Assembly (NCBI GenBank): GCA_963825685.1
Contig: CAWGUD010000027.1
Location: 130,538 to 154,537, forward strand
Source of the DNA: an uncultured Actinomycetes bacterium
GTDB lineage: Bacteria > Actinomycetota > UBA4738 > HRBIN12
DNA length: 24,000 nt
Reading direction: 5' to 3'
Positions 4,126 through 22,630 of this stretch are shown piece by piece. A program made the translations under genes and the position numbers. Under the pieces are notes generated by a model. The model saw only the letters and a list, made by a program, of their open reading frames with translations. It was not told where the DNA came from and did no database searches. How positions within the stretch are numbered: position 1 is the stretch's first letter; each line of letters starts with the position of its first letter.

Positions 4126-6489
4126 TCAGCTCGATGCCTCGCGCTCGGAGCGAGCCGACGCCCGAGCGGTCTCGAGCTGGTAGGAGACGCTCGTGAGGAC
4201 GACGCGATCCTCGAACAGGAACAGGCGCTTCACGAACAACGCGGTCTGTCCGTGCAGCGGCAGCTGCCACCACTTCGCCACGATGTACTCGGGGACCACG
4301 ACGTTCACGATCGTGTCCGCCCGCTCGGTGTACCGACGCACCTCGGCCAGCATCGGGATCGAGAGGTCGCGGAACGGCGCCTCGACGATGTCGAGCGGCA
4401 CGGCCTCGACGACGTCGAACCAGTCTTCGCCGATCGAGTGCGCGGCCTCGGGGTCGAGATCGAAGTAGACCGCCCTCGTCACGGTCGCGTCGAGCGTGCG
4501 GGCGTAGTTCACCGCCCGCACGGACACGTCGTTCACCGAGGAGAGGAACACGAGCGTCACGGTGCGCTGCGGGATCAGCGGCTTGCCACCGGCTCCCGAG
4601 GGGGAACCTTCCTCGAGCACGACGGGGACGTCGGTGACGACGACGTTGGGGGTGCGCAGCATGCTGGCCTTCAGGCGCACGAGGTCGCGGCTGCCCACGA
4701 GGTAGGAGAAGAAGCCCTGGGGACGCAGCAGCTCGGGGACGATCACGGTCACGAAGTCGTCGGGGCCACGGTCGATCCCCTCCACCACGCTCCGGACACC
4801 CGACGTGAGGTTCGAAGCCGCGATCGGCATCAGGTCGGGGATGCCCGCCCCGACGAAGGAGCGCCAGCGCGCCTGCACGTCGGCGGCGACCTCACCCTCG
4901 CGACAGGGGAAGACCGGCCGGATGTCCTCGGGGCGGAACGACCGCAGGTACCCCACCGCGCCGGCGGTCGCGACGTCGAAGTCGCGAACGAGCAGCACCA
5001 CGTGGTTCTCACCCGTGGCACCCGGTCGGACCCGCTTCGCGCTCAACTGGCGCCGCACGTTCGCGTAGTGGTGGTGGATCGAGTAGAAGACGGGCACGAG
5101 CAGCGCCATGATCAGGATCGAGAGCCACGCGCCGCTCGACCACTTCGAGGCGCCGACCACGATCAACACCACGAACGTCGTGACCGCCCCGACCGCGTTG
5201 ATCACGATCGATCGGCGCCACCCCTTCATCGCGGTGTCGCCCTTGCGACCCTCCGCGATCCAGTGCTTCACCATGCCCGATTGAGACAGCGTGAACGACG
5301 TGAACACGCCGACCACGTAGAGCCCGATCACCGCGTTCAGGTCCGCGTCGAAGATGTAGATCATCACCGCCGACAGCAGCCCGAGCACGAGCACGCCGTT
5401 GGAGAAGACGAGGCGGTCGCCGCGGTTCACGAACTGGCTCGGCAGGTACCGGTCGCGGGCCAGGATCGAGGCGAGACGCGGGAAGTCCTGGTAGGCCGTG
5501 TTGGCAGCAAGGATCAGGATCGCCGCCGTGAACACCTGCACGACGTAGAAGCCGATCGATCCGTCGCCGAAGACCGCGATCGCGATCTGCGCCGGCACGG
5601 AACGCTCTTCACTCGCGACGACGCCCTCGACGTGCGTCGCGAGCCAGGAGATGCCCATGAACATCGAGATCGCGATGCCACCCATGATCGCGAGCGTCGT
5701 CGCGGCGTTGTGCGCCTGCGGACGTTTGAACGCCGGCACGCCGTTGGAGATCGCCTCCACACCGGTGAGCGCGGTGGCGCCTGACGAGAACGCCTTGAGG
5801 AGCACGAACAGCCCGACCGCGCCCGCGGTCGTCGCCGCGTCGTGGATCGGCTCGACCTCGACACCCACCGCCGGGCAGCCTCCGAGGCACTGACCGAGCC
5901 CGAGCACGATCAACGCACCGATCGAGAGCACGAAGCCGTAGGTCGGGATCGCGAACACCACGCCCGACTCCTTGGAGCCGCGCAGGTTCGCGAGCGTGAC
6001 GAAGGCCACGAAGAAGATCGAGAGGGCGACCGCGTGCTCGTTGGCTGCCGGAATCGCCGAACCGATCGCGAACACCCCGGCCACGATCGAGACGACGACG
6101 GTCATCATGTAGTCGAAGAGCAGGGCCGCGGCGGCGACGAGGCCGGGAGCCTGGCCGAGGTTCTCCTTGCTCACGATGTACGCCCCGCCGCCCCCCGGGT
6201 AGGCCCGCACGGTCTGGCGGTACGAGGCGATCACGAGCGCCATCAAGAGCGAGACGGCTCCCGCGATCGGGAGCACGTAACCCTGCGGCGCCGTGGTCGC
6301 GATCGTGAGCACGAGGAGGATCTCGCCGGTGGCGTAGGCGACCGACGACAGCGCGTCGGACGCGAAGACGGGCAGCGCGAGGACCTTCGGCAGCAGGGTG
6401 TGTTCGAGGCGCGAGCTCGAGAAGGCGCGGCCGAGCACGACCCGCTTGAACACCCCGGTCGACGGCGCGGGAAGGTCGGTCCTGGCCAT
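4126..6489 (-). CDS. APC-superfamily permease, KimA-type K+/H+ symporter-like, with two tandem C-terminal cytoplasmic domains (paralogue 1)
   Basis: 787-aa ORF. Motifs: FKRVVLGRAFSS..LEHTLLPKVLALPVFASDALSSVAYATGE, SYRQTVRAYPGGGGAYIVSKENLG, LLKAFSSGATALTGVEAISNGVPAFKRPQAHNAA and LAANTAYQDFPRLASILARDRYLPSQFVNRGDRLVFSNG. As far as I recall these match B. subtilis KimA (YdaO) and M. tuberculosis Rv2690c-type proteins. Two 131-aa C-terminal repeats occupy nt 4615-5007 and 4174-4566. Confidence 0.8.
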   Translation of the reverse strand: MARTDLPAPSTGVFKRVVLGRAFSSSRLEHTLLPKVLALPVFASDALSSVAYATGEILLVLTIATTAPQGYVLPIAGAVSLLMALVIASYRQTVRAYPGGGGAYIVSKENLGQAPGLVAAAALLFDYMMTVVVSIVAGVFAIGSAIPAANEHAVALSIFFVAFVTLANLRGSKESGVVFAIPTYGFVLSIGALIVLGLGQCLGGCPAVGVEVEPIHDAATTAGAVGLFVLLKAFSSGATALTGVEAISNGVPAFKRPQAHNAATTLAIMGGIAISMFMGISWLATHVEGVVASEERSVPAQIAIAVFGDGSIGFYVVQVFTAAILILAANTAYQDFPRLASILARDRYLPSQFVNRGDRLVFSNGVLVLGLLSAVMIYIFDADLNAVIGLYVVGVFTSFTLSQSGMVKHWIAEGRKGDTAMKGWRRSIVINAVGAVTTFVVLIVVGASKWSSGAWLSILIMALLVPVFYSIHHHYANVRRQLSAKRVRPGATGENHVVLLVRDFDVATAGAVGYLRSFRPEDIRPVFPCREGEVAADVQARWRSFVGAGIPDLMPIAASNLTSGVRSVVEGIDRGPDDFVTVIVPELLRPQGFFSYLVGSRDLVRLKASMLRTPNVVVTDVPVVLEEGSPSGAGGKPLIPQRTVTLVFLSSVNDVSVRAVNYARTLDATVTRAVYFDLDPEAAHSIGEDWFDVVEAVPLDIVEAPFRDLSIPMLAEVRRYTERADTIVNVVVPEYIVAKWWQLPLHGQTALFVKRLFLFEDRVVLTSVSYQLETARASARSEREASS

Positions 6490-6498
6490 GGCGGCAGC

Positions 6499-8886
6499 CT
6501 ACGTGGTCGCCGGGGTCCCGGCGGTCGGGCTCGGGTCGGGCCCGACCTCGGGCGCCGACAGGTGGAACGGCACGCTCGTGACCACGACACCCGGCTCGAA
6601 GAGCAGCACCCGTTTGAAGAACAGGGCGGTCTGGTTGTGCAACAGGTTCTCCCACCAGTGTCGTGGCACGAGCTCGGGCAGCACGACGGTGACCACGGTG
6701 TCGCCGCGTGATGTGTGCGCGCGGATCTCTTCGAGCAACGGCGGACCGAAGTCGCGGAAGGGAGCCTCGACCAGCACGAGCGGCACGTCGAGCTGCCGCT
6801 CGTGCCACTCGTCCACCACGCCCTCGACCTCGTCGGGATCGGTGACCATGTAGATCGCCTCGATCGCGGTGGGGTGCAGCGACTTGCCGTAGATCACGGC
6901 ACGCACCGTCGGATCGTGCACCGCGGAGACGGGCACGAGGACCACCGTGCGCTCCGGCTCGAGCGGTCGATCGCCGAGCCAGGTCGGCCGCGCTTCCGAC
7001 GGCACGAGCGGCACGTCGGTCACGACCACTCGCGGCTCGAACAGCAGCGCCGTCTTCAGCAGGAACGCCTCCCGATGTCGCACGAACTGCCAGACCGTGT
7101 TGCGCGGAAGCAGCTCGGGGATCACGACCGTGAGGAATCGGTCCCGCTCGTGGCGAGGCACCGAGCGCACGAAGCGACGGACGGATCGGACGAGGTGCCG
7201 GTCGGCGCCTCGGAGCGGCTCCAGCTCGCCCATGCGGGGGGCGATCACCGACCACTCCGCCGCCACGCCCTCGAACGCATCGGCAGGGCCGACGTACAGC
7301 GCGTTGAAGCTGGTGGGGCGAACGGCCCGCAGGTAGGCGACCGCATCACGGGTCGCGAGCCCCAGGTCGGGCACGAGCAGCAGCATCGTGCCGCTCGCGG
7401 CGTCGCGCCCGGTCAGGCGGCGAGCCTGCAGCGCGCGCGCCACGTGCTCGTAGTGGCGATGCACCGCCCAGAAGAACAGCACGATGAACGGCATCGCGAC
7501 GATCACGATCCAGGCGCCCTTGGCGAACTTCGTGACCGTGACGACGACGAGCACGACGCCGGTCGTGGCCGCGCCGATGCCGTTGATCACGGCGCTCCGC
7601 TGCCAGCTCCCCTCCTTCGTCCGCATCCAGCGCCGGACCATGCCCGCCTGCGACAGCGTGAAGGCCGTGAACACGCCGACGACGTAGAGCTGGATCAGCC
7701 GCGTGAGGTTGGCGTCGAACGCCCAGATCAGCATCGCCGCGAGACCGGCGAGGACGACGACGCCGTTCGAGAAGACGAGCCGGTCGCCCCGGTTGCGGAA
7801 CTGCGAGGGCATGAAGCGGTCGCGCGCGAGGATCGAGGCGAGCCGAGGGAAGTCCTGGAACGCCGTGTTGGCCGCGAGGATCAGGATGCCCGCGGTGAAC
7901 ACCTGCAGCAGCAGGAACATGAAGCCGCCGCCGAAGACCGTGTCGCCGATCTGGGCCAGCACCGGCAGCTCGTGGACGATGTCCTCGCTGATCCGCACGT
8001 GCAGGAGCACGGAGAGCGCGGTGATGCCGAGGAACATCGTGATCGACATCGCTCCCATCACCGCGAGGGTGGTCGCGGCGTTCCTCGCCTGCGGCCTGCG
8101 GAACGCCGGCACCCCGTCGGCGATCGCCTCGACGCCGGTCAACGCGGTCGCACCCGACGAGAACGCGCGCGCGATCAGGAACAGCGTCAGCGTGTGCTCG
8201 ACCTCGAGGGGAAGGTCAGCGGTCTCGGCGAGCGGGCAGCCGCCCATGCAGCGGACGAAGCCCGTCACGAGCGTGATCGCGATCATCAGCACGAACCCGT
8301 AGGTCGGGATCGCGAACAGCGACCCGGCCTCCTTCACGCCTCGGAGGTTGGCGAGGGTCACGAGGGCGACGAGCGCGATCGCGATCGGCACGCGCATCGG
8401 TACGAGGGTCTCCGGTGCGACGGAGGCGATCGCCGTGGTCCCCGCGGTGATGCTCACCGCCACGGTCAGCACGTAGTCGGTCAGGATCGCGGCGGCGGCG
8501 GTGAGGCCGGGGATCGTCCCCAGGTTCTCGCGGGCGACGATGTAGGAGCCGCCGCCGGTGGGATAGGCACGCACCGTCTGCCGGTACGACGTGACGACGA
8601 TGGCCAGCAGCAGGGCGATCGCCAGCGCGATCGGCATCCTGAGCGTGAGGGCCCCGGCCCCGGCCGCCACGAGCACGAGCATCATCTCCTCGGTGGCGTA
8701 CGCGTTCGAGGAGAGGGGGTCGGAGGAGAAGACCGGCAGGGCGAGGAACTTCGGCAGGAGCTGGTGCTCGGCCTTGTCGGAGGCGATGGCCCGTCCGACG
8801 AACAGTCGCTTCAGGGGGCCCCCACCGACCCTGCGAGGGAGTTGCAGCTCTGCAGGCACGGCGAGCATCCTCGCACGTCGCGGCAC
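6499..8886 (-). CDS. APC-superfamily permease, KimA-type K+/H+ symporter-like, with two tandem C-terminal cytoplasmic domains (paralogue 2)
   Basis: 795-aa ORF, colinear paralogue of 4126..6489 with the same motifs (LKRLFVGRAIAS..AEHQLLPKFLALPVFSSDPLSSNAYATEE, SYRQTVRAYPTGGGSYIVARENLG, ARAFSSGATALTGVEAIADGVPAFRRPQARNAA, RGDRLVFSNG). Its stop lies 9 nt before the start of paralogue 1. The start is uncertain: GTG 8886 or ATG 8868. Confidence 0.8.
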   Translation of the reverse strand: MPRRARMLAVPAELQLPRRVGGGPLKRLFVGRAIASDKAEHQLLPKFLALPVFSSDPLSSNAYATEEMMLVLVAAGAGALTLRMPIALAIALLLAIVVTSYRQTVRAYPTGGGSYIVARENLGTIPGLTAAAAILTDYVLTVAVSITAGTTAIASVAPETLVPMRVPIAIALVALVTLANLRGVKEAGSLFAIPTYGFVLMIAITLVTGFVRCMGGCPLAETADLPLEVEHTLTLFLIARAFSSGATALTGVEAIADGVPAFRRPQARNAATTLAVMGAMSITMFLGITALSVLLHVRISEDIVHELPVLAQIGDTVFGGGFMFLLLQVFTAGILILAANTAFQDFPRLASILARDRFMPSQFRNRGDRLVFSNGVVVLAGLAAMLIWAFDANLTRLIQLYVVGVFTAFTLSQAGMVRRWMRTKEGSWQRSAVINGIGAATTGVVLVVVTVTKFAKGAWIVIVAMPFIVLFFWAVHRHYEHVARALQARRLTGRDAASGTMLLLVPDLGLATRDAVAYLRAVRPTSFNALYVGPADAFEGVAAEWSVIAPRMGELEPLRGADRHLVRSVRRFVRSVPRHERDRFLTVVIPELLPRNTVWQFVRHREAFLLKTALLFEPRVVVTDVPLVPSEARPTWLGDRPLEPERTVVLVPVSAVHDPTVRAVIYGKSLHPTAIEAIYMVTDPDEVEGVVDEWHERQLDVPLVLVEAPFRDFGPPLLEEIRAHTSRGDTVVTVVLPELVPRHWWENLLHNQTALFFKRVLLFEPGVVVTSVPFHLSAPEVGPDPSPTAGTPATT

Positions 8887-8905: not shown

Positions 8906-9595
8906 CTAGCCGGCGACCTCGGCCACCCAGCGATAGCCGACCCCCGGCTCCGTGACGATCAGGGCCGGGGCCTGCGCATCGTCGCCGAGCTTCTTCCGCA
9001 GGGCACGCACGTAGGTGCGCAGGTAGGTCGTCTCGGTCCCGTAGCCCTGCCCCCACACCTTCCGCAGGAGCCACTGATGGGTGAGGAGCTTGCCCGGGTT
9101 CGTCACGAGCGCCTCGAGCAGGCCGTACTCCGTGGGTGTGAGCCGCACCTGCTCGCCGTCGAGGGTCACCAGCCGACGGGGAAGGTCGACCTCGATCCTG
9201 CCGAACCGCAGCACGGGTGCGGATGGCTCGTCAGACTGCTTGCGGCGCATAGCAGCCCGGGCCCGGGCGAGGAGCTCCTCCATGCCGAAGGGCTTCGTGA
9301 CGTAGTCATCGGCGCCCGCGTCGAGCGCGGCGACCTTGTCGGTCTGAGATTCCCGCACCGAGAGCACGATCACCGGCACGTCGCTGAACCCGCGAACACG
9401 GCGGATCACCTCGGTCCCGTCGATGTCGGGGAGCCCGAGGTCCAGCAGCACGAGATCGGGCGCCTGCTCGGCAGCGCCGACGACCCCTTCCTCGCCGGTG
9501 CCGACGGTCGCGACGTCGTACCCGTGGGCCTCGAGGCTCGTGCGAAGCGCCCGTCTGATCTGCGGCTCGTCGTCGACGACGAGGACCAGGGTCAT
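8906..9595 (-). CDS. OmpR/PhoB-family response regulator, KdpE paralogue
   Basis: 229 aa with a receiver domain (VVDDEPQI...DLGLPDIDG...KPF) and a winged helix (LTPTEYGLLEALVTNPGKLLTHQWLLRKVWG...YLRTYVRALRKKL). By eye it is about half identical to the KdpE at 14866..15552. Its ATG overlaps the stop of the upstream kinase (ATGA). Confidence 0.9.
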   Translation of the reverse strand: MTLVLVVDDEPQIRRALRTSLEAHGYDVATVGTGEEGVVGAAEQAPDLVLLDLGLPDIDGTEVIRRVRGFSDVPVIVLSVRESQTDKVAALDAGADDYVTKPFGMEELLARARAAMRRKQSDEPSAPVLRFGRIEVDLPRRLVTLDGEQVRLTPTEYGLLEALVTNPGKLLTHQWLLRKVWGQGYGTETTYLRTYVRALRKKLGDDAQAPALIVTEPGVGYRWVAEVAG

Positions 9596-11106
9596 GTGCG
9601 CGCCTCCTGATCGGCCGGGACCCCGGCGCGAGCGAGGTCGGCCTCGAGTCCCGGCGTGTACGCGGGGATCTCGAACACGAAGGTCGCGCCCTCACCGACC
9701 GCGTCCTCGACCCAGATGCGGCCGCCGTGCGCCGTGACGATCGCGTTCGCGATCGCGAGTCCCAGGCCGGTGCCGGGGGAATCCGGGATCGAGGCGCCTC
9801 GGTAGAAGGCCTCGAAGATGCGCTCGCGGTCACCGTCAGGAACGCCGGGCCCCTGATCGGTCACCCGCACGATGACGTGATCGTTCGACGGCGCGACCGA
9901 CAGCCTCACCTCACCTCCGGGCGGCGAGTGGCGTGCGGCGTTCTCGAGCAGGTTCGTCATCACCTGGTCGAGCTGCATCTCGTCGACGGCGACCGGGGGC
10001 ACGTCATCGTCGATGTCGAGCACGATCCGCACGTCGTGCAGGCGCGGCACGAGCCGGGCGACGACGACCTCCGCGATCTCGTCGAGACCGGCCTCGTTGC
10101 GGGCGGGGATCAGGGCGCCCGCCCGGATGCGCGCGAGGTCGAGGATGTTGCCGACCAGTCGGTTCAGCCGGTCGGTCTCCTCGAGGATCGTCGTGAGCAG
10201 CTCCCGTTCCTGCGTCGGATCGTGCTCCACGCTGGGATCGAGCAGGCTCGTGACCCCCGCCTTGATCGACGCGAGCGGCGTGCGGAAGTCGTGGGTCACC
10301 GAACTGAACATCGCCGCGCGCAGCTGGTTCGTCTCGGCATCGAGCTGCGCGAGCCGGGCGCGGGCGTCGAGCCGAGCGCGGTCGAGCGCGGCGGCGGCCT
10401 GCTTCGATGCCGCCTCGAGGAGGAGCTGCTCGTGCGGCCCGAGGGGCCGACGTCCGGCGGGGCGCTCGACCCGCAGCGTGCCGAACGAGACCGGCCCGAC
10501 GACGAGGGGCACCACGCTGTCCGGACCGCCGGGCGTGAGCTCGGAGCGCTCCGCGCGCGCGCGGAGCTGCGTGCCGTCGAGCTCGACGTGCACCTCGGCC
10601 GAGACCAGCCCGAACGGCTCCAGCAGCACGCGCACGAAATCGTCGAGCACCCGGTCGGGCACCTCGCCCGAGACGAACCTCGACGAGAGGTGCCCGAGCA
10701 GGCGTGCCTCGCGCTCACGACGGCTCGCCCGGGCCCGCTCCTCGGCGGCACCCCCGACCAGGATGCCGACGACGAGCGCCACGGTCAGGAACACCACCGC
10801 GGTGACCGCCTCCTCGGTGCCCTCGAGCTGCAGGGCAAGCCCCTGTGCCTCGGACAGGAACACGAGCCCCAGCGACGACAGGATCGCAGCGAGGAGGCCC
10901 GCCCAGAGGCCACCCGCGACCGTCGCGATCACGATCGCCAGCAGGAAGAGCGCGATCGCGGCCGCCGGCCCGTTGCGGGCGAGCGGGATCGAGGCCACGC
11001 CGGCGGCCGCGGGGGCGACCACCGCGATCGCCACCCCGCGGACGCGCAGGCCGGGGAATCGGCGCCGTTCCGGCTCGTTCACTCCCAGATCCATCGTGTT
11101 GGCCAT
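9592..11106 (-). CDS. Sensor histidine kinase, KdpD C-terminal-half type (TM/DUF4118-like + GAF-like + HisKA + HATPase_c), lacking the KdpD N-terminal and Usp domains
   Basis: 504 aa. The H-box FSSVTHDFRTPLASIKAGVTSL is near-identical to that of KdpD in this window (LSAVSHDLRTPLASIKAAASSL). The N, G1 and G2 boxes are present (LLENAARHSP, DQGPGVP, GTGLGLAI). The N-terminus has 3-4 TM helices, and no Walker-A KdpD domain is present. Confidence 0.85.
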   Translation of the reverse strand: MANTMDLGVNEPERRRFPGLRVRGVAIAVVAPAAAGVASIPLARNGPAAAIALFLLAIVIATVAGGLWAGLLAAILSSLGLVFLSEAQGLALQLEGTEEAVTAVVFLTVALVVGILVGGAAEERARASRREREARLLGHLSSRFVSGEVPDRVLDDFVRVLLEPFGLVSAEVHVELDGTQLRARAERSELTPGGPDSVVPLVVGPVSFGTLRVERPAGRRPLGPHEQLLLEAASKQAAAALDRARLDARARLAQLDAETNQLRAAMFSSVTHDFRTPLASIKAGVTSLLDPSVEHDPTQERELLTTILEETDRLNRLVGNILDLARIRAGALIPARNEAGLDEIAEVVVARLVPRLHDVRIVLDIDDDVPPVAVDEMQLDQVMTNLLENAARHSPPGGEVRLSVAPSNDHVIVRVTDQGPGVPDGDRERIFEAFYRGASIPDSPGTGLGLAIANAIVTAHGGRIWVEDAVGEGATFVFEIPAYTPGLEADLARAGVPADQEART

Positions 11107-11134
11107 CGTGCCATGCGTATCGGCACGGATCCGT

Positions 11135-11184
11135 CTTCACGTGATCTTCACGCCACGGCGCCGTTCCTTCACGCCACCCTCACA
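11135..11184. promoter_or_regulatory. Array of four phased 7-bp direct repeats (two pho-box-like 7+4+7 units); candidate response-regulator operator upstream of the kinase/regulator/permease operon
   Basis: Plus strand reads CTTCACG-tgat-CTTCACG (11135-11152) and CTTCACG-ccac-CCTCACA (11167-11184). Repeat starts are at 11135, 11146, 11167 and 11178, spaced 11/21/11. The array lies 29-78 nt upstream of the kinase ATG (11106). On the operon-sense strand the repeat reads CGTGAAG. Confidence 0.4.
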
Positions 11185-11306
11185 GACCGAGGACGATGCT
11201 CTGGGCAGGAGTAGAACGTCCTCCGAACCAAGCCCGGAGGCCGGACGGCGCCCTCCAGCCCGCCCGACCTCCGGGCCCCGTCCTTTCCGGACCCCTCCCC
11301 CGCCGG

Positions 11307-11322
11307 TGTGAACGACTTCACA
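11307..11322. promoter_or_regulatory. Perfect CRP/GlxR-type palindrome TGTGA-N6-TCACA
   Basis: The sequence is TGTGAacgactTCACA at 11307-11322, in the 314-bp divergent intergenic region. An extra TGTGA half-site lies at 11330-11334. A Crp-family regulator gene lies 540 bp away. Confidence 0.55.
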
Positions 11323-11420
11323 GCGTTCCTGTGACCCACGCCGCCCACCTTCCGACGGCCCACGCCTACGGTCGGACCGAGGGCTGCGAGGTGAGCAGCC
11401 ACCGAGCGGAGGGAGAGGTC

Positions 11421-11792
11421 ATGAGCGCCACCGAGGTGCAGCACCCGAGCGGATCGGCCCACACGGGAACGCCCTGGTCGTGGGTGGGAGTCGCCGCCGT
11501 GATGGTGTTGATCTCACGGTGTTGTCGATCGGGCTGGCTCGCAACGTCGGGAGAGACGACGCGTCCGGGCGGTGGTGAGACGGCACCGGTCACCGAGATC
11601 CAGATCGAGGTGCCGGCGAAGGACCTCGTCCTGCACGGCCGCGGACTCGTGGACATGCCGGACCAGGTCGCAGTCGCCAAAGGTGCCGCAGCCGCGACGA
11701 AGTCGACCGCGAACGAGACGTCGGGCGCAGGAGCGGGGATCGCAGCGAAGGCGACGTGCCCTGAGCAGCTCGCCCTGAAGCTCTTCTGCTGA
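11421..11792 (+). CDS. Hypothetical small protein (123 aa) with one N-terminal hydrophobic segment
   Basis: Internal ATG of ORF 11196..11792, preceded by GGAGGGAGAGG. Third-codon-position GC is high throughout. The hydrophobic stretch is PWSWVGVAAVMVLI. A strong hairpin follows 18 nt after the stop. I recognise no family. Confidence 0.45.
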   Translation: MSATEVQHPSGSAHTGTPWSWVGVAAVMVLISRCCRSGWLATSGETTRPGGGETAPVTEIQIEVPAKDLVLHGRGLVDMPDQVAVAKGAAAATKSTANETSGAGAGIAAKATCPEQLALKLFC

Positions 11793-11809
11793 CTCCCGCG
11801 AGTCGCGCA

Positions 11810-11841
11810 CGACGGATCCGGCCGACAGGCCGGATCCGTCG
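11810..11841. terminator. Bidirectional intrinsic-terminator-like hairpin between convergent genes
   Basis: A perfect 14-bp stem (c)GACGGATCCGGCC-gaca-GGCCGGATCCGTC(g) sits 18 nt after the stop at 11792 and 20 nt after the minus-strand stop at 11862. It has no U-tract, which is common for actinobacterial terminators. Confidence 0.6.
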
Positions 11842-11861
11842 CGTGTCGAGGGGCCCGGACC

Positions 11862-12554
11862 TCACCCGTCCGAGAGTCGCTCGAGGGCCTCGGGGTCCAG
11901 CAGCAGGTATCGCCGACCGTCGCGCCGGACGATGCCGCGCCGACCGAACTCGGACAGCGTCTTCGACACGCTCTCGCGCGTCACCCCGCACAGGCTCGCG
12001 AGGTCTGCCTGCGAGATCGGTGGCACCGCCGGCACACCGTCGGGTCCATCGTCCCTCGCGAGCTGCAGCAGCCGCTTCGCGAGGCGGCCCTTGAGGTCGA
12101 GCCACACGAGGTCGTCCGCGCTCGTCTCCTTCGCGATCACCTGTCTCGCGAGCGTCCGCAACAGACCGATCGCGAGCGTCGGCACCTCGCTCGCCAGCGA
12201 GATGAACGCCTCCCGCTCGAGGACCCAGATGCGTGCGTCCTCGAGGCACAGGACCGAGGCGGTTCGCTCGGTTTCGGCGAAGACCCCAAGCTCGCCGAAG
12301 AGCCGCACGGATTCCAGCCGGCCCTGCAGCTGCGAGCCCGAGGACGGCGACGACGTGGCGATCTCCAGTCGCCCTTCGAGGAGCATGAACACCTCCGACG
12401 ACGGGTCTCCCTGCATCGTGACGTACGTGCCGGCCCGATAGGCGCGGATCCGCCCCGTCGCCACGACCCGGGCGAGCGTGTCGTCCGGGATGCCGGCGAA
12501 GAGCTCATGCCGGCGCATCGCCCGCATCGCGCGGTCCGTGTCTCGGGTGCTCAT
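11862..12554 (-). CDS. Crp/Fnr-family cyclic-nucleotide-binding transcriptional regulator
   Basis: Lies within ORF 11862..12620. The start was set at ATG 12554, preceded by GAGGAGGTGG. The cNMP pocket is FGELGVFAETERTASV (compare CAP GELGLFEEGQERSAWV). The HTH is ISQADLASLCGVTRESVSKTLSEF, and its RE..K recognition residues resemble M. tuberculosis Crp SRETVNK. Confidence 0.85.
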   Translation of the reverse strand: MSTRDTDRAMRAMRRHELFAGIPDDTLARVVATGRIRAYRAGTYVTMQGDPSSEVFMLLEGRLEIATSSPSSGSQLQGRLESVRLFGELGVFAETERTASVLCLEDARIWVLEREAFISLASEVPTLAIGLLRTLARQVIAKETSADDLVWLDLKGRLAKRLLQLARDDGPDGVPAVPPISQADLASLCGVTRESVSKTLSEFGRRGIVRRDGRRYLLLDPEALERLSDG

Positions 12555-12658
12555 GCCACCTCCTCGGATGACCCATCGTCGCTCGCGACGGGCCGCGCGT
12601 CGACCCCGCGACACCGGCATGCTGCCGTCGCGCGCGGCGTGGTCTAGGATGCCCCGCG

Positions 12659-13321
12659 ATGCGAGTGATCATCATGGGATGCGGCCGCGTCGGCTCCGAG
12701 CTGTCGAACGAGCTCGTCGACGACGGCCACGACGTCACCGTGATCGACAAGAATCCCGAGGCCTTCTTCCGCTACCCGCCGGGCGACGGTGCGACGACCG
12801 TCGTCGGGCTAGGGTTCGACCGCGACGTGCTGGCGGAGGCGGGCATCGAGGAGGCTGACGCCTTCGTCGCGGTCTCCAGTGGGGACAACTCGAACATCGT
12901 CTCGGCTCGCGTCGCGCTCGAGAACTTCCATGTGCCCAAGGTCGTGGCGCGTATCTACGACCCCCGGCGTGCCGACATCTATGAGCGGCTCAACATCCCG
13001 ACCGTCGCCACCACGAGGTGGGGCGTGAAGCAGATCCAGCTGATGCTGTTCCACGACCGCCAGGAGATCCGCGAGACGCTGGGCGGTGGCGAGCTGCTGC
13101 GCATGCGCATGCCGGTGGGACCCCACATGGTCGGCAAGCCCGCGACCTCCTTCGACGTGCCGGGCAAGATCCTGATCGCCGGGGTATCGCGCGGAGGCGG
13201 CGGCTTCTTGCCCACCCCGGAGAGCACCTTGCAGGCGGGGGACTACCTCGTGGTGATGCTCACGAAGGACGGCATGGACACGCTCGACGAGGTCTTCGAG
13301 CCGGCCGGGGAGCACCACTGA
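12659..13321 (+). CDS. trkA: TrkA-family K+ uptake regulatory protein (RCK: TrkA_N + TrkA_C), CeoB-like
   Basis: 220 aa with a Rossmann motif (MRVIIMGCGRVGSELSNELVDDGHDVTVID) and a C-terminal TrkA_C-like region (LLRMRMP..HMVGKP..FDVPGKILIAGVSRGG...LQAGDYLVV). Confidence 0.9.
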   Translation: MRVIIMGCGRVGSELSNELVDDGHDVTVIDKNPEAFFRYPPGDGATTVVGLGFDRDVLAEAGIEEADAFVAVSSGDNSNIVSARVALENFHVPKVVARIYDPRRADIYERLNIPTVATTRWGVKQIQLMLFHDRQEIRETLGGGELLRMRMPVGPHMVGKPATSFDVPGKILIAGVSRGGGGFLPTPESTLQAGDYLVVMLTKDGMDTLDEVFEPAGEHH

Positions 13322-14041: not shown

Positions 14042-14869
14042 TCAGCCGTCGGCGGTGGTCGCGGCGGCGATCGCCGCTCGCAGCGCTCGGTCTCGTTCGA
14101 GCAGCAAGGCGAGCTGGTTCCCGAACGCCTCCAGGATGCGTCGCTCCGAGGCGCTGAGTGGTTCGCGGACTCCGCGCATCACCAACAGCCCCAGGTTGCG
14201 GCGCCCCACGTTGAGGGGGAGCCGCTCCACGCCCTCCCCACCGCTGGGCGGCACGGCGCCGGGTTCCGTTCCCACCGTCGCCTGCTCCACGAGCCCGCGA
14301 TCGGAACCCTCCTGCACGTACAGGGCGCCGTCCAGGAACCCGAACGACGCCACCACGACCCGCAGCACGCCCTCGTACGGCCGAGGTCCTGGTTGGGGCT
14401 CGACCAGCAGGCGGCTGAGGTCCTGCTGCCTGCGGAGCTCCTCGGCGCGGGCCTCCGCAGCCCGCGCCCGTGCGTCGGCGCGGGCGACGAGCACGGAGAT
14501 CAGCACCGACAGCCCCAGGAAGACGAACAGCACGATCACGTCGTGCGACTTGCCGATCACGAACGTCTCGTACGGGGGTAGGAAGAAGAAGTTGAAGACG
14601 GCGAACCCGAGCACACTCGCCACGATGCCCGGGCCGAGCCCACCCAGGCCGACGCACGCGACGACCAGCACGAGGAAGCCGAACCCCGTCGCGACCGGGT
14701 CGACCCGCTCGCGGATCGCCGGCGCAGCGAGCACGATCGCCGCCGTTCCGGCGACCGCGAGCACGTACGCCGCCGCGACCCGGCCGGAGACCTGGATGCG
14801 CGGACGACGTTGGGGCGGTGTGCCGACCTCGTGCCGGTCGGGCCGATCAGGTGCCTGAGATGCCGTCAT
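14042..14869 (-). CDS. Kinase-less KdpD-like sensor core (DUF4118 transmembrane domain + GAF-like domain)
   Basis: Internal ATG 14869 of ORF 14042..15088, overlapping the kdpE stop (ATGA). It has four TM helices with the DUF4118 hallmark FAVFNFFFLPPYETFVI, then a coiled segment and a GAF-like region (VLRVVVASFGFLDGALYV...LLVMRG...ERRILEAFGNQLALLLERDRA). It ends where the HisKA helix would begin. Confidence 0.75.
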   Translation of the reverse strand: MTASQAPDRPDRHEVGTPPQRRPRIQVSGRVAAAYVLAVAGTAAIVLAAPAIRERVDPVATGFGFLVLVVACVGLGGLGPGIVASVLGFAVFNFFFLPPYETFVIGKSHDVIVLFVFLGLSVLISVLVARADARARAAEARAEELRRQQDLSRLLVEPQPGPRPYEGVLRVVVASFGFLDGALYVQEGSDRGLVEQATVGTEPGAVPPSGGEGVERLPLNVGRRNLGLLVMRGVREPLSASERRILEAFGNQLALLLERDRALRAAIAAATTADG

Positions 14870-15552
14870 GGGGTTCCCTCCGGCTCGAACCGGTACCCCA
14901 TGCCGGGCTCGGTGATGAAGAACCGAGGTCGCGCCGGGTCGGGCTCGAGCTTGCGTCGGATCTGCGCCATGTACACACGCAGGTAGTTCGTCTCGTCGTG
15001 GTACTGCGGCCCCCACACCTCCTGCAGCAGCTGTCGTTGCGTCACGAGCTTGCCCGGGTTGCGGACCAGGATCTCCACGACGTGCCACTCGGTCGGCGTG
15101 AGCCGCACCTCACCCTCGGCGGTGCGCACCCGCGCCGCACCGAGGTCGACCGTGAAGGCGTCGGTCGTGACTTCTGGTTCCTCGTCCGTCGGACGCAGCC
15201 GCCGTTCGGCGGCTCGCAGCCGCGCGAGGAGCTCGTCCATGCCGAAGGGCTTCGTCACGTAGTCGTCGGCGCCGGCGTCGAGGGCACGGACCTTGTCCGG
15301 CTCCTGGTCACGGGCCGAGAGCACGAGGATCGGCATGCGGCTCCATGCCCTGATGCCCTCGATCACGTCGACCCCGTCGATCCCGGGCAAGCCGAGATCG
15401 ACGATCGCCACATCGGGACGTTCACGGGCGGCGATCGCGAGGGCCTCCTCGCCATCGGGGGCGGTCACCACGTCGTACCCACGGGCGCGCAGGTTCGTGC
15501 GGAGCCCGCGCACGATCTGGGGCTCGTCGTCGACCACCAGCACCCGGGTCAT
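14866..15552 (-). CDS. kdpE: Response regulator KdpE
   Basis: 228 aa with motifs LSARDQEPDKVRALDAGADDYVTKPFGMDELLAR and LTPTEWHVVEILVRNPGKLVTQRQLLQEVWGPQY..ETNYLRVYMAQIRRKLE. Its ATG overlaps the kdpD stop. Confidence 0.92.
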   Translation of the reverse strand: MTRVLVVDDEPQIVRGLRTNLRARGYDVVTAPDGEEALAIAARERPDVAIVDLGLPGIDGVDVIEGIRAWSRMPILVLSARDQEPDKVRALDAGADDYVTKPFGMDELLARLRAAERRLRPTDEEPEVTTDAFTVDLGAARVRTAEGEVRLTPTEWHVVEILVRNPGKLVTQRQLLQEVWGPQYHDETNYLRVYMAQIRRKLEPDPARPRFFITEPGMGYRFEPEGTP

Positions 15553-18664: not shown

Positions 18665-20650
18665 CTACACCACCGTCCCGACGAGGAGGTCGATCAACTT
18701 GATGCCGACGAACGGCGCCACGATGCCCCCCAGCCCGTAGATGCCGAGGTTCCGGCGCAACATGGCGCTCGCCGACTTCGGCGTGTATCGCACGCCACGC
18801 AGCGCCAACGGGATCAGGGCGACGATGATCAACGCGTTGAAGATCACCGCCGACAGGATCGCGGAGTTCGGGCTCGACAGGCGCATCACGTTCAAGGTGT
18901 CGAGTCCGGGGTACACGGCGGCGAACATCGCGGGGATGATCGCGAAGTACTTCGCCACGTCGTTCGCGATCGAGAACGTCGTGAGCGAGCCGCGCGTGAT
19001 CAACAGCTGCTTGCCGATCGCCACGATCTCGATCAACTTCGTCGGGTTCGAGTCGAGGTCGACCATGTTGCCGGCTTCCTTGGCGGCGCTCGTCCCCGTG
19101 TTCATCGCGACGCCGACATCGGCTTGCGCGAGGGCGGGGGCATCGTTCGTGCCGTCGCCGGTCATCGCGACGAGCTTGCCGCCGTCCTGCTCACTGCGGA
19201 TCAGCGCCATCTTGTCCTCGGGCGTCGCCTCGGCGAGGTAGTCGTCGACCCCGGCCTCGGACGCGATCGCCTCGGCCGTGCGGGGATTGTCACCGGTGAT
19301 CATCACGGTGCGGATGCCCATCGCGCGGAGCTCGTCGAAGCGCTGCCGCATACCTTCCTTCACGATGTCCTTCAGGTAGACGACGCCGAGCACCCGATCG
19401 TCCTCGGCCACGGTCAGCGGCGTGCCGCCCTGCACCGAGATGCCGGCGACGATCGTGTCGACCTCCTCGGAGACCGAGCCCCCTTGCTCCTCGACCCAGT
19501 GCCGGATCGAGTCCGCCGCTCCCTTGCGAAGGCTGCGCCCGTCGAGGTCGACGCCGCTCATGCGCGTCTGCGCTGTGAACGGCACGAAATCGGCGCCCTC
19601 CAGGTCGCGCCCGCGGAGCCCGTACCGCTCCTTGGCGAGCACGACGATCGATCGGCCCTCGGGCGTCTCGTCCGCGAGGCTGGTGATCTGTGCAGCATCG
19701 GCCAGCTGTTCGACCGTGACCCCGGGCGCGGGCAGGAACTCCGCCGCCTGGCGGTTCCCGAGCGTGATCGTGCCGGTCTTGTCGAGCAGCAGGGTGTTCA
19801 CGTCGCCCGCCGCCTCGACGGCGCGGCCCGACATCGCGAGCACGTTGCGCTGCACCAACCGGTCCATACCGGCGATGCCGATCGCGGAGAGCAGCGCGCC
19901 GATCGTGGTCGGGATCAGGCAGACGAGCAGCGCGACGAGCACGATGATCGTCTGGCGAGCCCCCGAGTAGATCGCCATCGGCTGCAAGGTGACGGTCGCG
20001 AGCAGGAACACGATCGTGAGGCTCGCGAGCAGGATGTTGAGGGCGATCTCGTTCGGGGTCTTCTGTCGCTCGGCACCCTCGACGAGCGCGATCATGCGGT
20101 CGATGAACGTCTCTCCCGGTCGCGACGTGATCTCGACCACGACGCGGTCGGAGAGCACCTTCGTGCCGCCGGTCACGGCGCTCCGGTCGCCACCCGACTC
20201 ACGGATCACCGGGGCCGACTCGCCCGTGATCGCCGACTCGTCGACCGAGGCCACTCCTTCGACGACCTCGCCGTCGCCGGGGATCACCTGACCGGCCTCG
20301 ACGACCACCCGGTCGCCGGGCGCGAGCAGCGTGCCGGGCACCTCTTCCTCGCGGCCGTCCGGGAGCAGGCGCCGTGCCATCGTCTCGGTCCGTGTCGCCC
20401 GCAGGGCCGCCGCCTGGGCCTTGCCTCGACCCTCGGCCACGGCCTCGGCGAGGTTGGCGAAGACCACCGTGAGCCAGAGCCACACGGTGATCAGCCCGGC
20501 GAAGAGCGACGAGTCGCGGACGAACAGGATCGTGGTCAGCACCGATCCGATCTCGACCACGAACATCACGGGGTTGCGCCACATCTGGCGAGGGTCGAGC
20601 TTGCGGAACGCGTCCGGCAAGGACCGCCACAGCAGCTTGACGTCGAACAT
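18665..20650 (-). CDS. kdpB: K+-transporting P-type ATPase subunit B
   Basis: 661 aa starting [35 protein letters not shown]. It carries DKTGTIT, MITGDN and [18 protein letters not shown]. In the ORF track it is fused to an out-of-frame kdpA readthrough (1170-aa ORF). Its ATG at 20650 overlaps the kdpA TGA. Confidence 0.95.
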
Positions 20651-22540: not shown

Positions 22541-22591
22541 CTTGATGCCCCCTTGACGGGGGCTGTTCGGATCATTGACGCGTCGCTGACG
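22541..22591. promoter_or_regulatory. Array of four phased 7-bp direct repeats (two 7+4+7 units); candidate KdpE operator upstream of the kdp operon
   Basis: Plus strand reads CTTGATG-cccc-CTTGACG (22541-22558) and ATTGACG-cgtc-GCTGACG (22574-22591). Repeat starts are at 22541, 22552, 22574 and 22585, spaced 11/22/11. The array lies 59-109 nt upstream of the first kdp-operon start codon. On the sense strand the repeat reads CGTCAAG. Confidence 0.35.
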
Positions 22592-22630
22592 CCCGACGCT
22601 CGCGCGCGAGCGGGGCCGACCAGGCGGGCC

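What the first reader, a model, noticed from the sequence alone, without database searches (positions are those of the whole stretch)
11135..11184. Pho-box-like array of CTTCACG direct repeats upstream of the truncated-kdpD/kdpE-like operon
Seen in sequence: three exact copies of CTTCACG and one CCTCACA start at 11135, 11146, 11167 and 11178. They form two units of 7 bp + 4-bp spacer + 7 bp (11-bp phasing, one helical turn) separated by 14 bp. The array lies 29-78 nt upstream of the kinase ATG. Two of the units share an 11-nt identity (CTTCACGCCAC). Established knowledge: OmpR/PhoB-family regulators, KdpE included, bind head-to-tail to direct repeats spaced about 11 bp apart, often replacing the -35 element. 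Inference: this is the autoregulatory operator of the adjacent KdpE paralogue.
Basis: partly seen in the sequence, partly recalled or inferred. Interest (0 to 1): 0.6.

Follow-up and report, generated by a model that had tools for sequence, protein, structure and literature searches.

The report
KdpE-paralogue operator between divergent promoters
The repeated CTTCACG motifs are real and conserved. They are almost certainly docking sites for the neighbouring potassium-system regulator, and they appear to face two ways: towards the regulator's own transporter operon and towards an undescribed small structured RNA on the other strand.

Summary
**Observation:** confirmed. Four heptamers, CGTGAAG on the gene strand, start at 11135, 11146, 11167 and 11178.

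**Conservation:** the same layout recurs in 38 orthologous loci from at least 4 genera of uncultured soil Actinomycetota. It reads H1 (C/T)GTGAGn, N4, H2 CGTGAAG, N14, H3 CGTGAAG, N4, H4 CGTGAA(A/G). Spacer sequences vary freely.

**Motif class:** it matches the footprinted M. smegmatis KdpE site (CGTAAAG-N4-CATCAAG). It also matches a CGTCAAG/CATCAAG array I found upstream of kdpF in this window.

**Which regulator:**
- Genomes lacking kdpDE keep the array.
- The paralogue's recognition helix is invariant wherever CGTGAAG occurs, and differs where relatives have CGTAAAG or CGTCAAG.

So "operator of the KdpE paralogue" is well supported, though binding is untested.

**New here:** on the opposite strand, exactly 10 nt beyond H1, 35 of 36 distinct loci carry G-A-N-N-N-T. 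That is pho-box geometry. This promoter-like element would transcribe a covarying, single-copy hairpin element with no Rfam match, lying between the kinase operon and trkA. The array therefore looks like a bidirectional control region.

**Unresolved:** the position of the kinase promoter relative to the array varies between lineages (5, 15?, 25 or 35 nt).

The parts
11135..11141 (-). Heptamer H4, CGTGAAG on the gene strand; the repeat nearest the kinase gene
   Evidence: CGTGAA(A/G) in 35/38 orthologous loci.
11146..11152 (-). Heptamer H3, CGTGAAG; forms a 7+4+7 unit with H4
   Evidence: CGTGAAG in 38/38 loci. The ATC of the spacer is also nearly invariant.
11153..11166 (.). 14-nt gap between the two dimer sites. 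Length is conserved and sequence is free except GA(A/T)C next to H2
   Evidence: 14 nt in 36/38 loci and 15 nt in 2. The H2-to-H3 start spacing of 21 nt puts both units on one face of the helix.
11167..11173 (-). Heptamer H2, CGTGAAG
   Evidence: CGTGAAG 32/38, CGTAAAG 3, CATGAAG 2, CGTGAAA 1.
11178..11184 (-). Heptamer H1, TGTGAGG (CCTCACA on +); the degenerate distal repeat, nearest the + strand promoter-like element
   Evidence: (C/T)GTGAGn in 35/38 loci and (C/T)GTGAAn in the other 3.
11195..11200 (+). GATGCT, a candidate -10 hexamer of a divergent (+ strand) promoter, exactly 10 nt beyond H1 (pho-box geometry)
   Evidence: G-A-N-N-N-T at this offset in 35 of 36 distinct loci. There are 10 different G-A-N-N-N-T hexamers, plus CACCAT in the one exception. 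The 10-nt spacer is constant in length and variable in sequence. Inference only, because the A-N-N-N-T pattern also reads on the other strand.
11207..11207 (+). Predicted transcription start (A) of the + strand RNA, 7 nt after the hexamer
   Evidence: a conserved cAG lies 6-8 nt after the hexamer in many loci. Not mapped experimentally.
11232..11276 (.). Conserved 16-17 bp GC-rich hairpin. Its invariant loop is CCCUCCAG on + and CUGGAGGG on -. It is flanked by invariant UCCUCCGA (11218-11225 on +) and CCGUCC (11280-11285 on +)
   Evidence: 9 of 15 pairs show compensatory changes. The covariance model R1 hits once per genome. No Rfam match. The strand is unresolved.
11114..11119 (-). TACGCA, a possible weak -10 for a leaderless kinase mRNA. 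It lies 7 nt before ATG 11106 and 15 nt after H4
   Evidence: in this lineage the pattern is T-A-N-N-N-A with a variable middle. Other lineages have TAGCGT, N6-9, then GTG. This is a weak inference.
9592..11106 (-). Histidine kinase with DUF4118+HisKA+HATPase (the KdpD C-terminal half, with no KdpD N-terminal or Usp domain)
   Evidence: Orthologues in 24/24 genus genomes. An in-frame stop lies inside H4, and the first in-frame start is ATG 11106.
8906..9595 (-). KdpE-paralogue response regulator, the proposed binder of the array
   Evidence: It is 55% identical to the true KdpE at 14866-15552. Its DNA-binding domain is essentially invariant across 4 genera.
4126..8886 (-). Two KimA-type K+ transporter genes, 19 and 9 nt downstream of the preceding genes. 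They are the likely output of the operon
   Evidence: KimA structure 6S3K matches at E 1.3e-120.

Best explanation
The four heptamers are two tandem binding sites for dimers of the phosphorylated KdpE-paralogue response regulator encoded at 8906-9595. Each site is 7+4+7 bp. The two sites start 32 bp apart and lie on the same face of the helix.

The array sits between two divergent transcription units and most likely serves both.

1. **Leftward.** It controls the probably leaderless operon of kinase, regulator and two KimA-type K+ transporters, giving autoregulation plus transporter output.
2. **Rightward.** The distal site H2-H1 takes the place of a -35 element, 10 nt upstream of a weak G-A-N-N-N-T -10, as a pho box does. 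It drives a structured RNA of about 75-85 nt. This RNA carries three C-rich CCUCC-like motifs and lies between the operon and trkA.

The G at heptamer position 4 (CGTGAAG versus CGTCAAG or CATCAAG at kdpF), together with three changed recognition-helix residues, would keep this regulator and the canonical KdpE on separate operators.

**Shown here:** repeat conservation, geometry, motif class, co-variation of helix and heptamer, and presence without kdpDE.

**Inferred:** actual binding, both promoters and their start sites, the sign of regulation, and the existence and strand of the RNA.

**My odds:**
- The paralogue binds the array: about 0.8.
- The rightward promoter is real: about 0.6.
- The kinase operon is regulated from the array: about 0.7.
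For: 1. **Conservation.** The heptamers are the most conserved columns of the intergenic alignment. The H1-N4-H2-N14-H3-N4-H4 layout holds in 38 loci of at least 4 genera with free spacers.
2. **Motif class.** The M. smegmatis KdpE minimal site, defined by DNase footprint and EMSA, is C-CGTAAAG-AAAC-CATCAAG-GCC (PMC5401905). It has the same 7+4+7 layout and matches CGTGAAG at 6 of 7 positions.
3. **A sister array in the same window.** Upstream of kdpF there is an 11-bp-phased array: CGTCAGC, CGTCAAT, CGAACAG, CGTCAAG, CATCAAG. The last heptamer is followed by 27 nt and then TACCGT. The array is conserved in 12 of the 16 fetched kdp loci, and the four I counted by hand all show the 27-nt spacing.
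4. **The regulator is KdpE-like.**
   - NCBIfam KdpE gives E 1.4e-71.
   - The best solved full-length matches are 6LGQ and E. coli KdpE 4KNY.
   - The equivalents of E. coli R193, R200 and T215 (PMC3264566) are present.
5. **The binder is the paralogue.**
   - kdpA was found in only 18/37 genus genomes.
   - Five kdpA-less genomes, 92-97% complete, show no credible KdpD N-domain; the only hit is a marginal one at E 4.5e-4 in G045.
   - Those I looked at still keep the array: G022, G011 and G001. G049 and G045 keep the adjacent hairpin element.
6. **Protein and DNA co-vary.**
   - All regulators next to CGTGAAG arrays share the helix TETTYLRTY(V/I)R(A/T)LRKKLG.
   - Order-level orthologues next to CGTAAAG, CGTCAAG or CGTAAGG arrays have (N/Q/H)YLRV(Y/F)(V/I)RQLR.
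   - The true KdpEs have NYLRVY(M/I)AQIRRKLE.
7. **Single-operon regulon.** No other site in the 3.6-Mb genome has fewer than 2 mismatches, and most 2-mismatch hits are in coding sequence.
8. **Rightward promoter.** G-A-N-N-N-T lies exactly 10 nt from H1 in 35/36 distinct loci. The middle three bases are free, the 10-nt spacer is variable in sequence, and cAG follows 6-8 nt later.
9. **The RNA.** The hairpin covaries, is single-copy, and always sits next to the array. Conservation starts right after the predicted start site and ends after CCGUCCUUU.
10. **Leaderless style in this clade.** trkA has TAGGAT, N8, then ATG. The kinase has TAGCGT, N6-9, then GTG in genera g22, g33 and g15 and in part of g1. 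No SD-like GGAGG motif precedes the kinase start in the window sequence.
Against:
- The -10-like pattern A-N-N-N-T is self-complementary. The same invariant bases could be read on the kinase strand as N-A-N-N-N-T. That would put a start site just upstream of H1 and place the array inside a 5' leader.
- Position 1 of the + strand hexamer is G, not the usual T.
- Hairpin strand tests conflict. In this genus the kinase-sense RNA is favoured by up to 17 kcal/mol through G.U pairs. In genus g22 the + sense is favoured by up to 8 kcal/mol.
- On the + strand the hairpin is not followed directly by a U-run, and the terminator scan finds nothing.
- In the window's own lineage no good TAnnnT precedes the kinase start.
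- In g22 the candidate -10 lies only 5 nt after H4, a geometry more typical of repression than activation.
- The two dimer sites point the same way, so they face the two promoters in opposite orientations.
Confidence: 0.65

Rival explanations
1. The array is a one-way autoregulatory operator that activates only the kinase operon. The opposite-strand hexamer and the hairpin are unrelated: for example, an insulating terminator plus a chance pattern.
For: - The heptamers read CGTNAAG towards the gene, as at kdpF in this clade.
- H3 and H4, next to the kinase gene, are the best conserved repeats.
- The distances from H4 to candidate -10 elements are 5, 15, 25 and 35 nt, all in helical register.
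- In this genus the hairpin folds better on the kinase strand and is followed there by a partly U-rich tail.
Against: - A G-A-N-N-N-T kept at a fixed 10 nt from H1 in 35/36 loci, while everything between varies, is hard to call chance.
- A plain terminator does not explain the invariant loop and flanks.
- The upstream gene, trkA in most genomes, is transcribed away from the hairpin, so there is little to terminate.
Confidence: 0.2
2. The array lies inside a long kinase-sense 5' leader. Transcription starts upstream of H1, either just before it from the N-A-N-N-N-T reading or upstream of the hairpin. Regulator binding then acts as a roadblock or repressor, or the repeats are an RNA-level element downstream of a riboswitch-like hairpin.
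For: - G.U pairs favour the kinase-sense hairpin in this genus.
- The invariant A...T-C can be read as a -10 on this strand.
Against: - No conserved promoter lies upstream of the hairpin on this strand.
- No SD-like GGAGG motif precedes the kinase start in the window sequence, and leaderless-type TAGCGT-N6-9-GTG is seen in several lineages, which argues for a start site at the start codon.
- The 11/21/11 phasing, the invariant heptamers with free spacers, and the match to a footprinted DNA site all argue for a DNA-level role.
- The repeats form no conserved RNA structure.
- In g22 the hairpin folds better on the + strand.
Confidence: 0.1
3. The array is bound mainly by the canonical KdpE (14866-15552) as part of the Kdp regulon, and the paralogue has other targets.
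For: The two regulators are 55% identical and their heptamers differ at a single position. One kdp promoter (G004) even contains a CGTGAAA unit.
Against: - The array and paralogue occur in 24/24 genus genomes, while kdpA occurs in 18/37.
- Five nearly complete genomes show no credible KdpD N-domain (one marginal hit at E 4.5e-4), and three of them (G022, G011, G001) were checked and keep the array.
- The helix signature co-varies with the heptamer type.
Confidence: 0.04

Closest known systems
M. smegmatis KdpE operator at PkdpF (Ali et al. 2017, PMC5401905)
   Same: The footprinted minimal site CCGTAAAGAAACCATCAAGGCC consists of two heptamers, CGTAAAG and CATCAAG, with a 4-bp spacer. The geometry is the same, and 6 of 7 bases match CGTGAAG. 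The regulator is an actinobacterial KdpE-type protein.
   Different: - Here position 4 is G in nearly all heptamers.
- There are two dimer sites separated by a 14-nt gap.
- The downstream operon encodes a truncated kinase, the regulator and KimA transporters, not kdpFABC.
- A second promoter-like element faces the other way.
- Binding is untested.
E. coli KdpE at kdpFABC (half-sites TTTATA/TTTACA; PMC3264566; PDB 4KNY)
   Same: - Direct repeats with an 11-bp period.
- The regulator matches E. coli KdpE (4KNY) at E 4e-62.
- R193, R200 and T215 equivalents are kept.
- The reverse complement of the actinobacterial heptamers (CTTTACG, CTTCACG) resembles TTTACA.
   Different: The sites are GC-rich 7-mers. 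The residues between the two arginines differ: TYVRAL here versus IYMGHL in E. coli. The targets differ.
Pho boxes of PhoB (E. coli) and PhoP (M. tuberculosis, 7-bp repeats with a 4-bp spacer, PMC4832192)
   Same: The repeats have 7+4+7 geometry. On the + strand, the repeat pair ends 10 nt upstream of a -10-like hexamer and replaces the -35. From memory, this is the spacing given for the E. coli pho box.
   Different: The regulator is a KdpE paralogue and the heptamer sequence differs. The class II arrangement is inferred only for the strand opposite to the regulator's own operon.
OmpR sites shared by the divergent ompC and micF promoters (E. coli; from memory)
   Same: An OmpR-family regulator controls a gene and a divergently transcribed small RNA from one set of tandem sites.
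   Different: The family member and the organisms are different. Here the RNA is only predicted, and its targets are unknown.
c-di-AMP (ydaO) riboswitch upstream of kimA and kdp in Firmicutes (e.g. PMC6488665)
   Same: It is a structured RNA associated with KimA, Kdp and Trk-type K+ uptake genes.
   Different: No match to the ydaO model or to any Rfam family, even at E<=10. The element here is a single long hairpin with C-rich or G-rich motifs. It is probably not in the kimA leader.

Membership tests
OmpR/PhoB-family (KdpE-type) direct-repeat operator | Two or more 6-7 bp direct repeats with 10-11 bp centre-to-centre spacing | tested here: met
   Heptamer starts are at 0, 11, 32 and 43. The same layout is seen in 38 loci.
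OmpR/PhoB-family (KdpE-type) direct-repeat operator | Half-site resembles an experimentally defined site of the same regulator subfamily | tested here: met
   CGTGAAG matches the M. smegmatis KdpE heptamer CGTAAAG at 6/7 positions and CATCAAG at 5/7, with the same 4-bp spacer. A CGTCAAG array lies upstream of kdpF in this window.
OmpR/PhoB-family (KdpE-type) direct-repeat operator | A cognate winged-helix regulator of that subfamily is encoded nearby, with its DNA-contact residues intact | tested here: met
   Response_reg plus Trans_reg_C domains. KdpE is the best NCBIfam match, though below the equivalog cut-off. 4KNY matches at E 4e-62. R193, R200 and T215 equivalents are present.
OmpR/PhoB-family (KdpE-type) direct-repeat operator | Repeats are conserved in orthologous regions while spacers drift, and they co-vary with the regulator's recognition helix | tested here: met
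OmpR/PhoB-family (KdpE-type) direct-repeat operator | Physical binding by the phosphorylated regulator (EMSA or footprint) | not testable with these tools
   No experiment was possible.
Pho-box-type class II promoter (regulator site replaces the -35) | A -10 hexamer at a fixed short distance (about 10 nt) downstream of the proximal repeat, with no -35 consensus | tested here: met
   On the + strand, G-A-N-N-N-T lies exactly 10 nt after H1 in 35/36 loci. On the kinase side the distance is not fixed: 5, 15?, 25 or 35 nt.
Pho-box-type class II promoter (regulator site replaces the -35) | A mapped transcription start 6-8 nt downstream of that hexamer | not testable with these tools
Known RNA families (Rfam 15, including the ydaO c-di-AMP riboswitch) | Covariance-model match to the hairpin region | tested here: not met
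   No hit at gathering threshold in the window. At E<=10 in 10900-11700 only chance miRNA-like hits appear.
Intrinsic terminator | GC-rich stem followed at once by a U-run | tested here: inconclusive
   The scan finds none. The kinase-sense tail is CUUGGUU. The + sense tail is CCCCGUCCUUUCC, with its U's 8 nt after the stem.

The most novel reading that the evidence does not exclude
The array is the hub of a small, self-contained K+ regulon in uncultured soil Actinomycetota. One KdpE paralogue would read a private heptamer (G at position 4) through three changed recognition-helix residues. From two same-face dimer sites it would control both its own kinase-regulator-KimA-KimA operon and a divergent, undescribed RNA of about 80 nt. 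That RNA has three anti-Shine-Dalgarno-like CCUCC motifs, belongs to no Rfam family, and lies next to trkA.
Probability: 0.4. Interest if true: 0.65.

Novelty: new variant of a known kind. Interest (0 to 1): 0.5.

Why it matters
KdpDE is the textbook K+-limitation switch, and its only well-studied output is kdpFABC. This locus offers three things.

1. **A paralogue with a one-base change of operator.** The matching recognition-helix signature makes this a natural, testable case of how duplicated OmpR-family regulators avoid cross-talk.
2. **A different wiring.** The paralogue is tied to KimA-type transporters and probably to a small RNA, rather than to the Kdp pump. It is also more widespread in this genus than Kdp itself.
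3. **A candidate new RNA family.** It is linked to K+ homeostasis in a lineage with no cultured members.

All three points can be tested with simple EMSA and reporter experiments in a heterologous actinobacterial host.

Tried and rejected
- **Rfam.** Nothing matched at gathering threshold or at E<=10.
- **Consensus promoter and terminator scan of 10900-11900.** No hits. It is not informative for GC-rich actinobacterial promoters.
- **Second genomic copy of the array on contig C36.** I rejected it as an independent target. C36 is a 97%-identical strain variant of 26.6 kb of this contig, in a MAG with 8% contamination.
- **Genome-wide regulon search, CGTGAAG-N4-CGTGAAG with up to 2 mismatches.** It gave 35 hits against 15 for the reversed control. 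All non-self hits have 2 mismatches and most lie in coding sequence. The intergenic CTTGAAG-GATC-CTTGAAG on C13 is a different heptamer.
- **Strand of the hairpin from G.U pairs and folding energies.** Results conflict between genera.
- **Hairpin as a trkA leader.** trkA has its own TAGGAT-N8-ATG promoter. The distance from hairpin to trkA varies from roughly 50 to more than 500 nt, with insertions. A dedicated leader is therefore unlikely, though read-through is possible.
- **GGAGGA as a -35 for a kinase-sense promoter.** Rejected: its spacing to the hexamer varies from 15 to more than 40 nt.
- **Small ORFs across the hairpin.** Rejected: there are indels that are not multiples of three.
- **sigma-54 reading of TGGCAC.** Rejected: there is no TTGC element, and from memory the factor is absent from Actinobacteria.
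- **CRP box at 11307-11322.** It belongs to the crp/p123 insertion found only in the closest relatives, not to the conserved module.

Full report
**1. Observation**

The + strand of the window holds CTTCACG at 11135, 11146 and 11167, and CCTCACA at 11178. On the strand of the adjacent genes this reads TGTGAGG-GTGG-CGTGAAG-N14-CGTGAAG-ATCA-CGTGAAG. It ends 28 nt before ATG 11106. I name the heptamers H1 to H4, with H4 nearest the kinase gene.

Taken alone, the cluster is not statistically compelling. Some triple-heptamer cluster appears in 23% of Markov-simulated 24-kb sequences.

**2. Genomic context**

The window comes from a 3.6-Mb, 70% GC metagenome-assembled genome of an uncultured soil actinomycete.

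On the minus strand the array is followed by:
- a DUF4118-HisKA-HATPase kinase, which is the C-terminal half of KdpD;
- a KdpE-like regulator;
- two KimA-type K+ transporter genes, separated from the preceding genes by 19 and 9 nt.

The canonical kdpFABC-kdpDE operon, two trkA genes and a Crp-family gene lie within 12 kb.

**3. Conservation**

Kinase orthologues, 54-96% identical, occur in all 24 sampled genomes of the genus.

In a 22-genome alignment of the upstream region, the heptamers are the most conserved columns and the spacers are free. With three further genera added through a covariance-model search, 38 loci share the same layout:
- H1 is (C/T)GTGAGn in 35 of 38, and (C/T)GTGAAn in the other 3.
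- H2 is CGTGAAG in 32/38.
- The gap is 14 nt in 36/38.
- H3 is CGTGAAG in 38/38.
- H4 is CGTGAA(A/G) in 35/38.

Heptamer starts at 0, 11, 32 and 43 place two 7+4+7 units on one face of the helix. This is the pattern expected of a protein-binding DNA site.

**4. Which kind of site**

The M. smegmatis KdpE minimal site, defined by DNase footprinting and EMSA, is C-CGTAAAG-AAAC-CATCAAG-GCC (PMC5401905). It consists of two heptamers of the same class with a 4-bp spacer.

Upstream of kdpF in this window I found an 11-bp-phased array on the minus strand: CGTCAGC, CGTCAAT, CGAACAG, CGTCAAG, CATCAAG (22597-22541). It is followed by 27 nt and then TACCGT. The array recurs in 12 of the 16 fetched kdp loci. 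In the four I counted by hand the last heptamer is 27 nt from a TAnnnT hexamer, and the search window itself allowed 25-29 nt.

The finding's array is therefore a KdpE-class operator. It differs from the canonical one mainly at heptamer position 4, which is G instead of C, A or T.

E. coli KdpE binds TTTATA and TTTACA repeats with the same 11-bp period (PMC3264566). M. tuberculosis PhoP binds 7-bp repeats with a 4-bp spacer (PMC4832192).

**5. Which regulator**

The paralogue is 55% identical to the window's true KdpE. It matches E. coli KdpE (4KNY) at E 4e-62.

Three observations assign the array to the paralogue.
- **The array occurs without kdpDE.** kdpA was found in only 18 of 37 genus genomes. 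Five kdpA-less genomes, 92-97% complete, show no credible KdpD N-terminal domain; the only hit is a marginal one at E 4.5e-4 in G045. G022, G011 and G001 still keep the array, and G049 and G045 keep the adjacent hairpin element.
- **The paralogue's DNA-binding domain barely changes.** It is essentially invariant across four genera, with helix TETTYLRTY(V/I)R(A/T)LRKKLG, while its kinase drops to 54% identity.
- **Different helices sit next to different heptamers.** Order-level orthologues next to CGTAAAG, CGTCAAG or CGTAAGG arrays carry (N/Q/H)YLRV(Y/F)(V/I)RQLR. The true KdpEs carry NYLRVY(M/I)AQIRRKLE.

The arginines and the wing threonine needed for DNA binding in E. coli KdpE are kept in all of them.

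**6. Regulon**

The only site in the genome with fewer than two mismatches to CGTGAAG-N4-CGTGAAG is this one. The copy on contig C36 is a strain variant of the same region. Most two-mismatch hits lie in coding sequence.

The regulator therefore appears dedicated to this intergenic region.

**7. The kinase-side promoter**

No SD-like GGAGG motif precedes the kinase start in the window sequence.

In genera g22 and g33 and in part of this genus, TAGCGT lies 5 nt after H4 and 6-9 nt before a GTG. In g15 the same hexamer lies 35 nt after H4.

In the window's own lineage, the hexamer 7 nt before ATG 11106 is T-A-N-N-N-A, 15 nt after H4. A conserved TGGCACGAT lies 24-25 nt after H4.

trkA in this clade has a clear leaderless-type TAGGAT-N8-ATG. 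A leaderless kinase mRNA starting downstream of the array is therefore plausible.

The distances 5, 15, 25 and 35 keep helical register. They do not tell whether the regulator activates or represses.

**8. A promoter-like element on the other strand**

Exactly 10 nt beyond H1 on the + strand, 35 of 36 distinct loci carry G-A-N-N-N-T, and the remaining one has C-A-N-N-N-T. In the window this is GATGCT at 11195-11200.

There are ten different G-A-N-N-N-T hexamers. The 10-nt spacer is constant in length but variable in sequence, and many loci have cAG 6-8 nt later.

Invariant A and T with a free middle is the signature of a -10 element. From memory, a repeat pair ending 10 nt upstream of the -10 is the pho-box arrangement.

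Two caveats apply.
- The A-N-N-N-T pattern also reads on the kinase strand.
- Position 1 is G rather than T.

**9. The hairpin element**

Downstream of that hexamer lies a 16-17-bp GC-rich hairpin at 11232-11276. Nine of its 15 pairs show compensatory changes.

On the + strand the hairpin's surroundings read as follows:
- the loop is an invariant CCCUCCAG;
- the 5' flank is an invariant UCCUCCGA;
- the 3' flank is an invariant CCGUCC.

Conservation stops after CCGUCCUUU.

A covariance model hits once per genome: 12/12 sampled genomes of this genus, 11/11 of genus g22, and a few others. The strong hits are always next to the array. Weak hits near E 0.01 in G132, G106 and G082 have no adjacent array or kinase. 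There is no Rfam match.

In most genomes the next gene in this direction is trkA. However, trkA has its own promoter, and the distance from the hairpin is variable, roughly 50 to more than 500 nt. In the window and its closest relatives, a small ORF and a crp gene with a CRP box are inserted in between.

The simplest reading is a regulator-dependent RNA of about 75-85 nt. The predicted fold has dG -41 kcal/mol and z -3.1.

The strand is not settled. G.U pairs favour the kinase-sense fold in this genus, by up to 17 kcal/mol. In g22 the + sense is favoured, by up to 8 kcal/mol.

**10. Verdict**

- **Observation:** confirmed.
- **Operator of the KdpE paralogue:** strongly supported by comparative evidence and by a published footprint of the same motif class.
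- **Autoregulatory:** plausible but unproven.

In kind, this is an OmpR/PhoB-type operator and so a known type of element. Three features make it a variant worth a bench test:
- the private heptamer and its matching recognition helix;
- the wiring to KimA transporters;
- the candidate divergent RNA.

Another note saw the hairpin in a different genome (e1-3247211).

Noticed in passing
window 22541-22597 (minus strand), upstream of kdpF: A second 11-bp-phased direct-repeat array: CGTCAGC, CGTCAAT, CGAACAG, CGTCAAG, CATCAAG. It is followed by 27 nt and then TACCGT at 22513-22508. It is conserved in 12 of the 16 fetched kdp loci as CGTCAAG and CGTTAGG units. This is presumably the canonical KdpE operator of this clade.
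   Followed up: yes
window 11232-11276 with flanks 11207-11290: A covarying GC-rich hairpin with invariant loop and flanks. It is single-copy per genome, always sits next to the repeat array in at least 4 genera, and has no Rfam match. It is a candidate small RNA or leader, and its strand is unresolved.
   Followed up: partly
window 11307-12620: The perfect TGTGA-N6-TCACA box, the 123-codon ORF (11421-11792) and the Crp-family gene (11862-12620) are present only in the closest relatives (G022, G004, G018, plus the near-identical L040). In most genomes trkA directly follows the hairpin region. This block therefore looks like an insertion between the control region and trkA.
   Followed up: partly
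window 12645-12661: trkA is preceded by TAGGAT, 8 nt and then ATG, with no Shine-Dalgarno sequence. The same TAGGAT/TAGGCT spacing of 7-10 nt is seen in all relatives examined. This points to a leaderless trkA mRNA.
   Followed up: partly
window 18665-22316: kdpA and kdpB read as one 1170-codon ORF whose first 313 residues match KdpA positions 47-354. The expected kdpA start, ATG 22316, is in another frame. That suggests frameshifts or assembly indels in kdpA.
   Followed up: no
G000 contig C36 versus C27:122319-148875: A 29.7-kb contig is a 97%-identical copy of 26.6 kb of the window's contig. This indicates strain heterogeneity in the bin (contamination estimate 7.95%), not a true duplication.
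   Followed up: yes
G000:C13:13894-13911: A perfect CTTGAAG-GATC-CTTGAAG direct repeat lies in a non-coding stretch. It may be the operator of another OmpR-family regulator.
   Followed up: no
window 11107-11127 (minus strand): A lineage-specific inverted repeat, CGTGCC-N9-GGCACG, abuts the kinase ATG. It is conserved only in the window's sub-lineage and its role is unknown.
   Followed up: no
genus-level survey: The truncated kinase-regulator system was found in 24/24 sampled genus genomes, while kdpA was found in only 18/37. The paralogue system is the more universal K+ regulator in this genus.
   Followed up: partly
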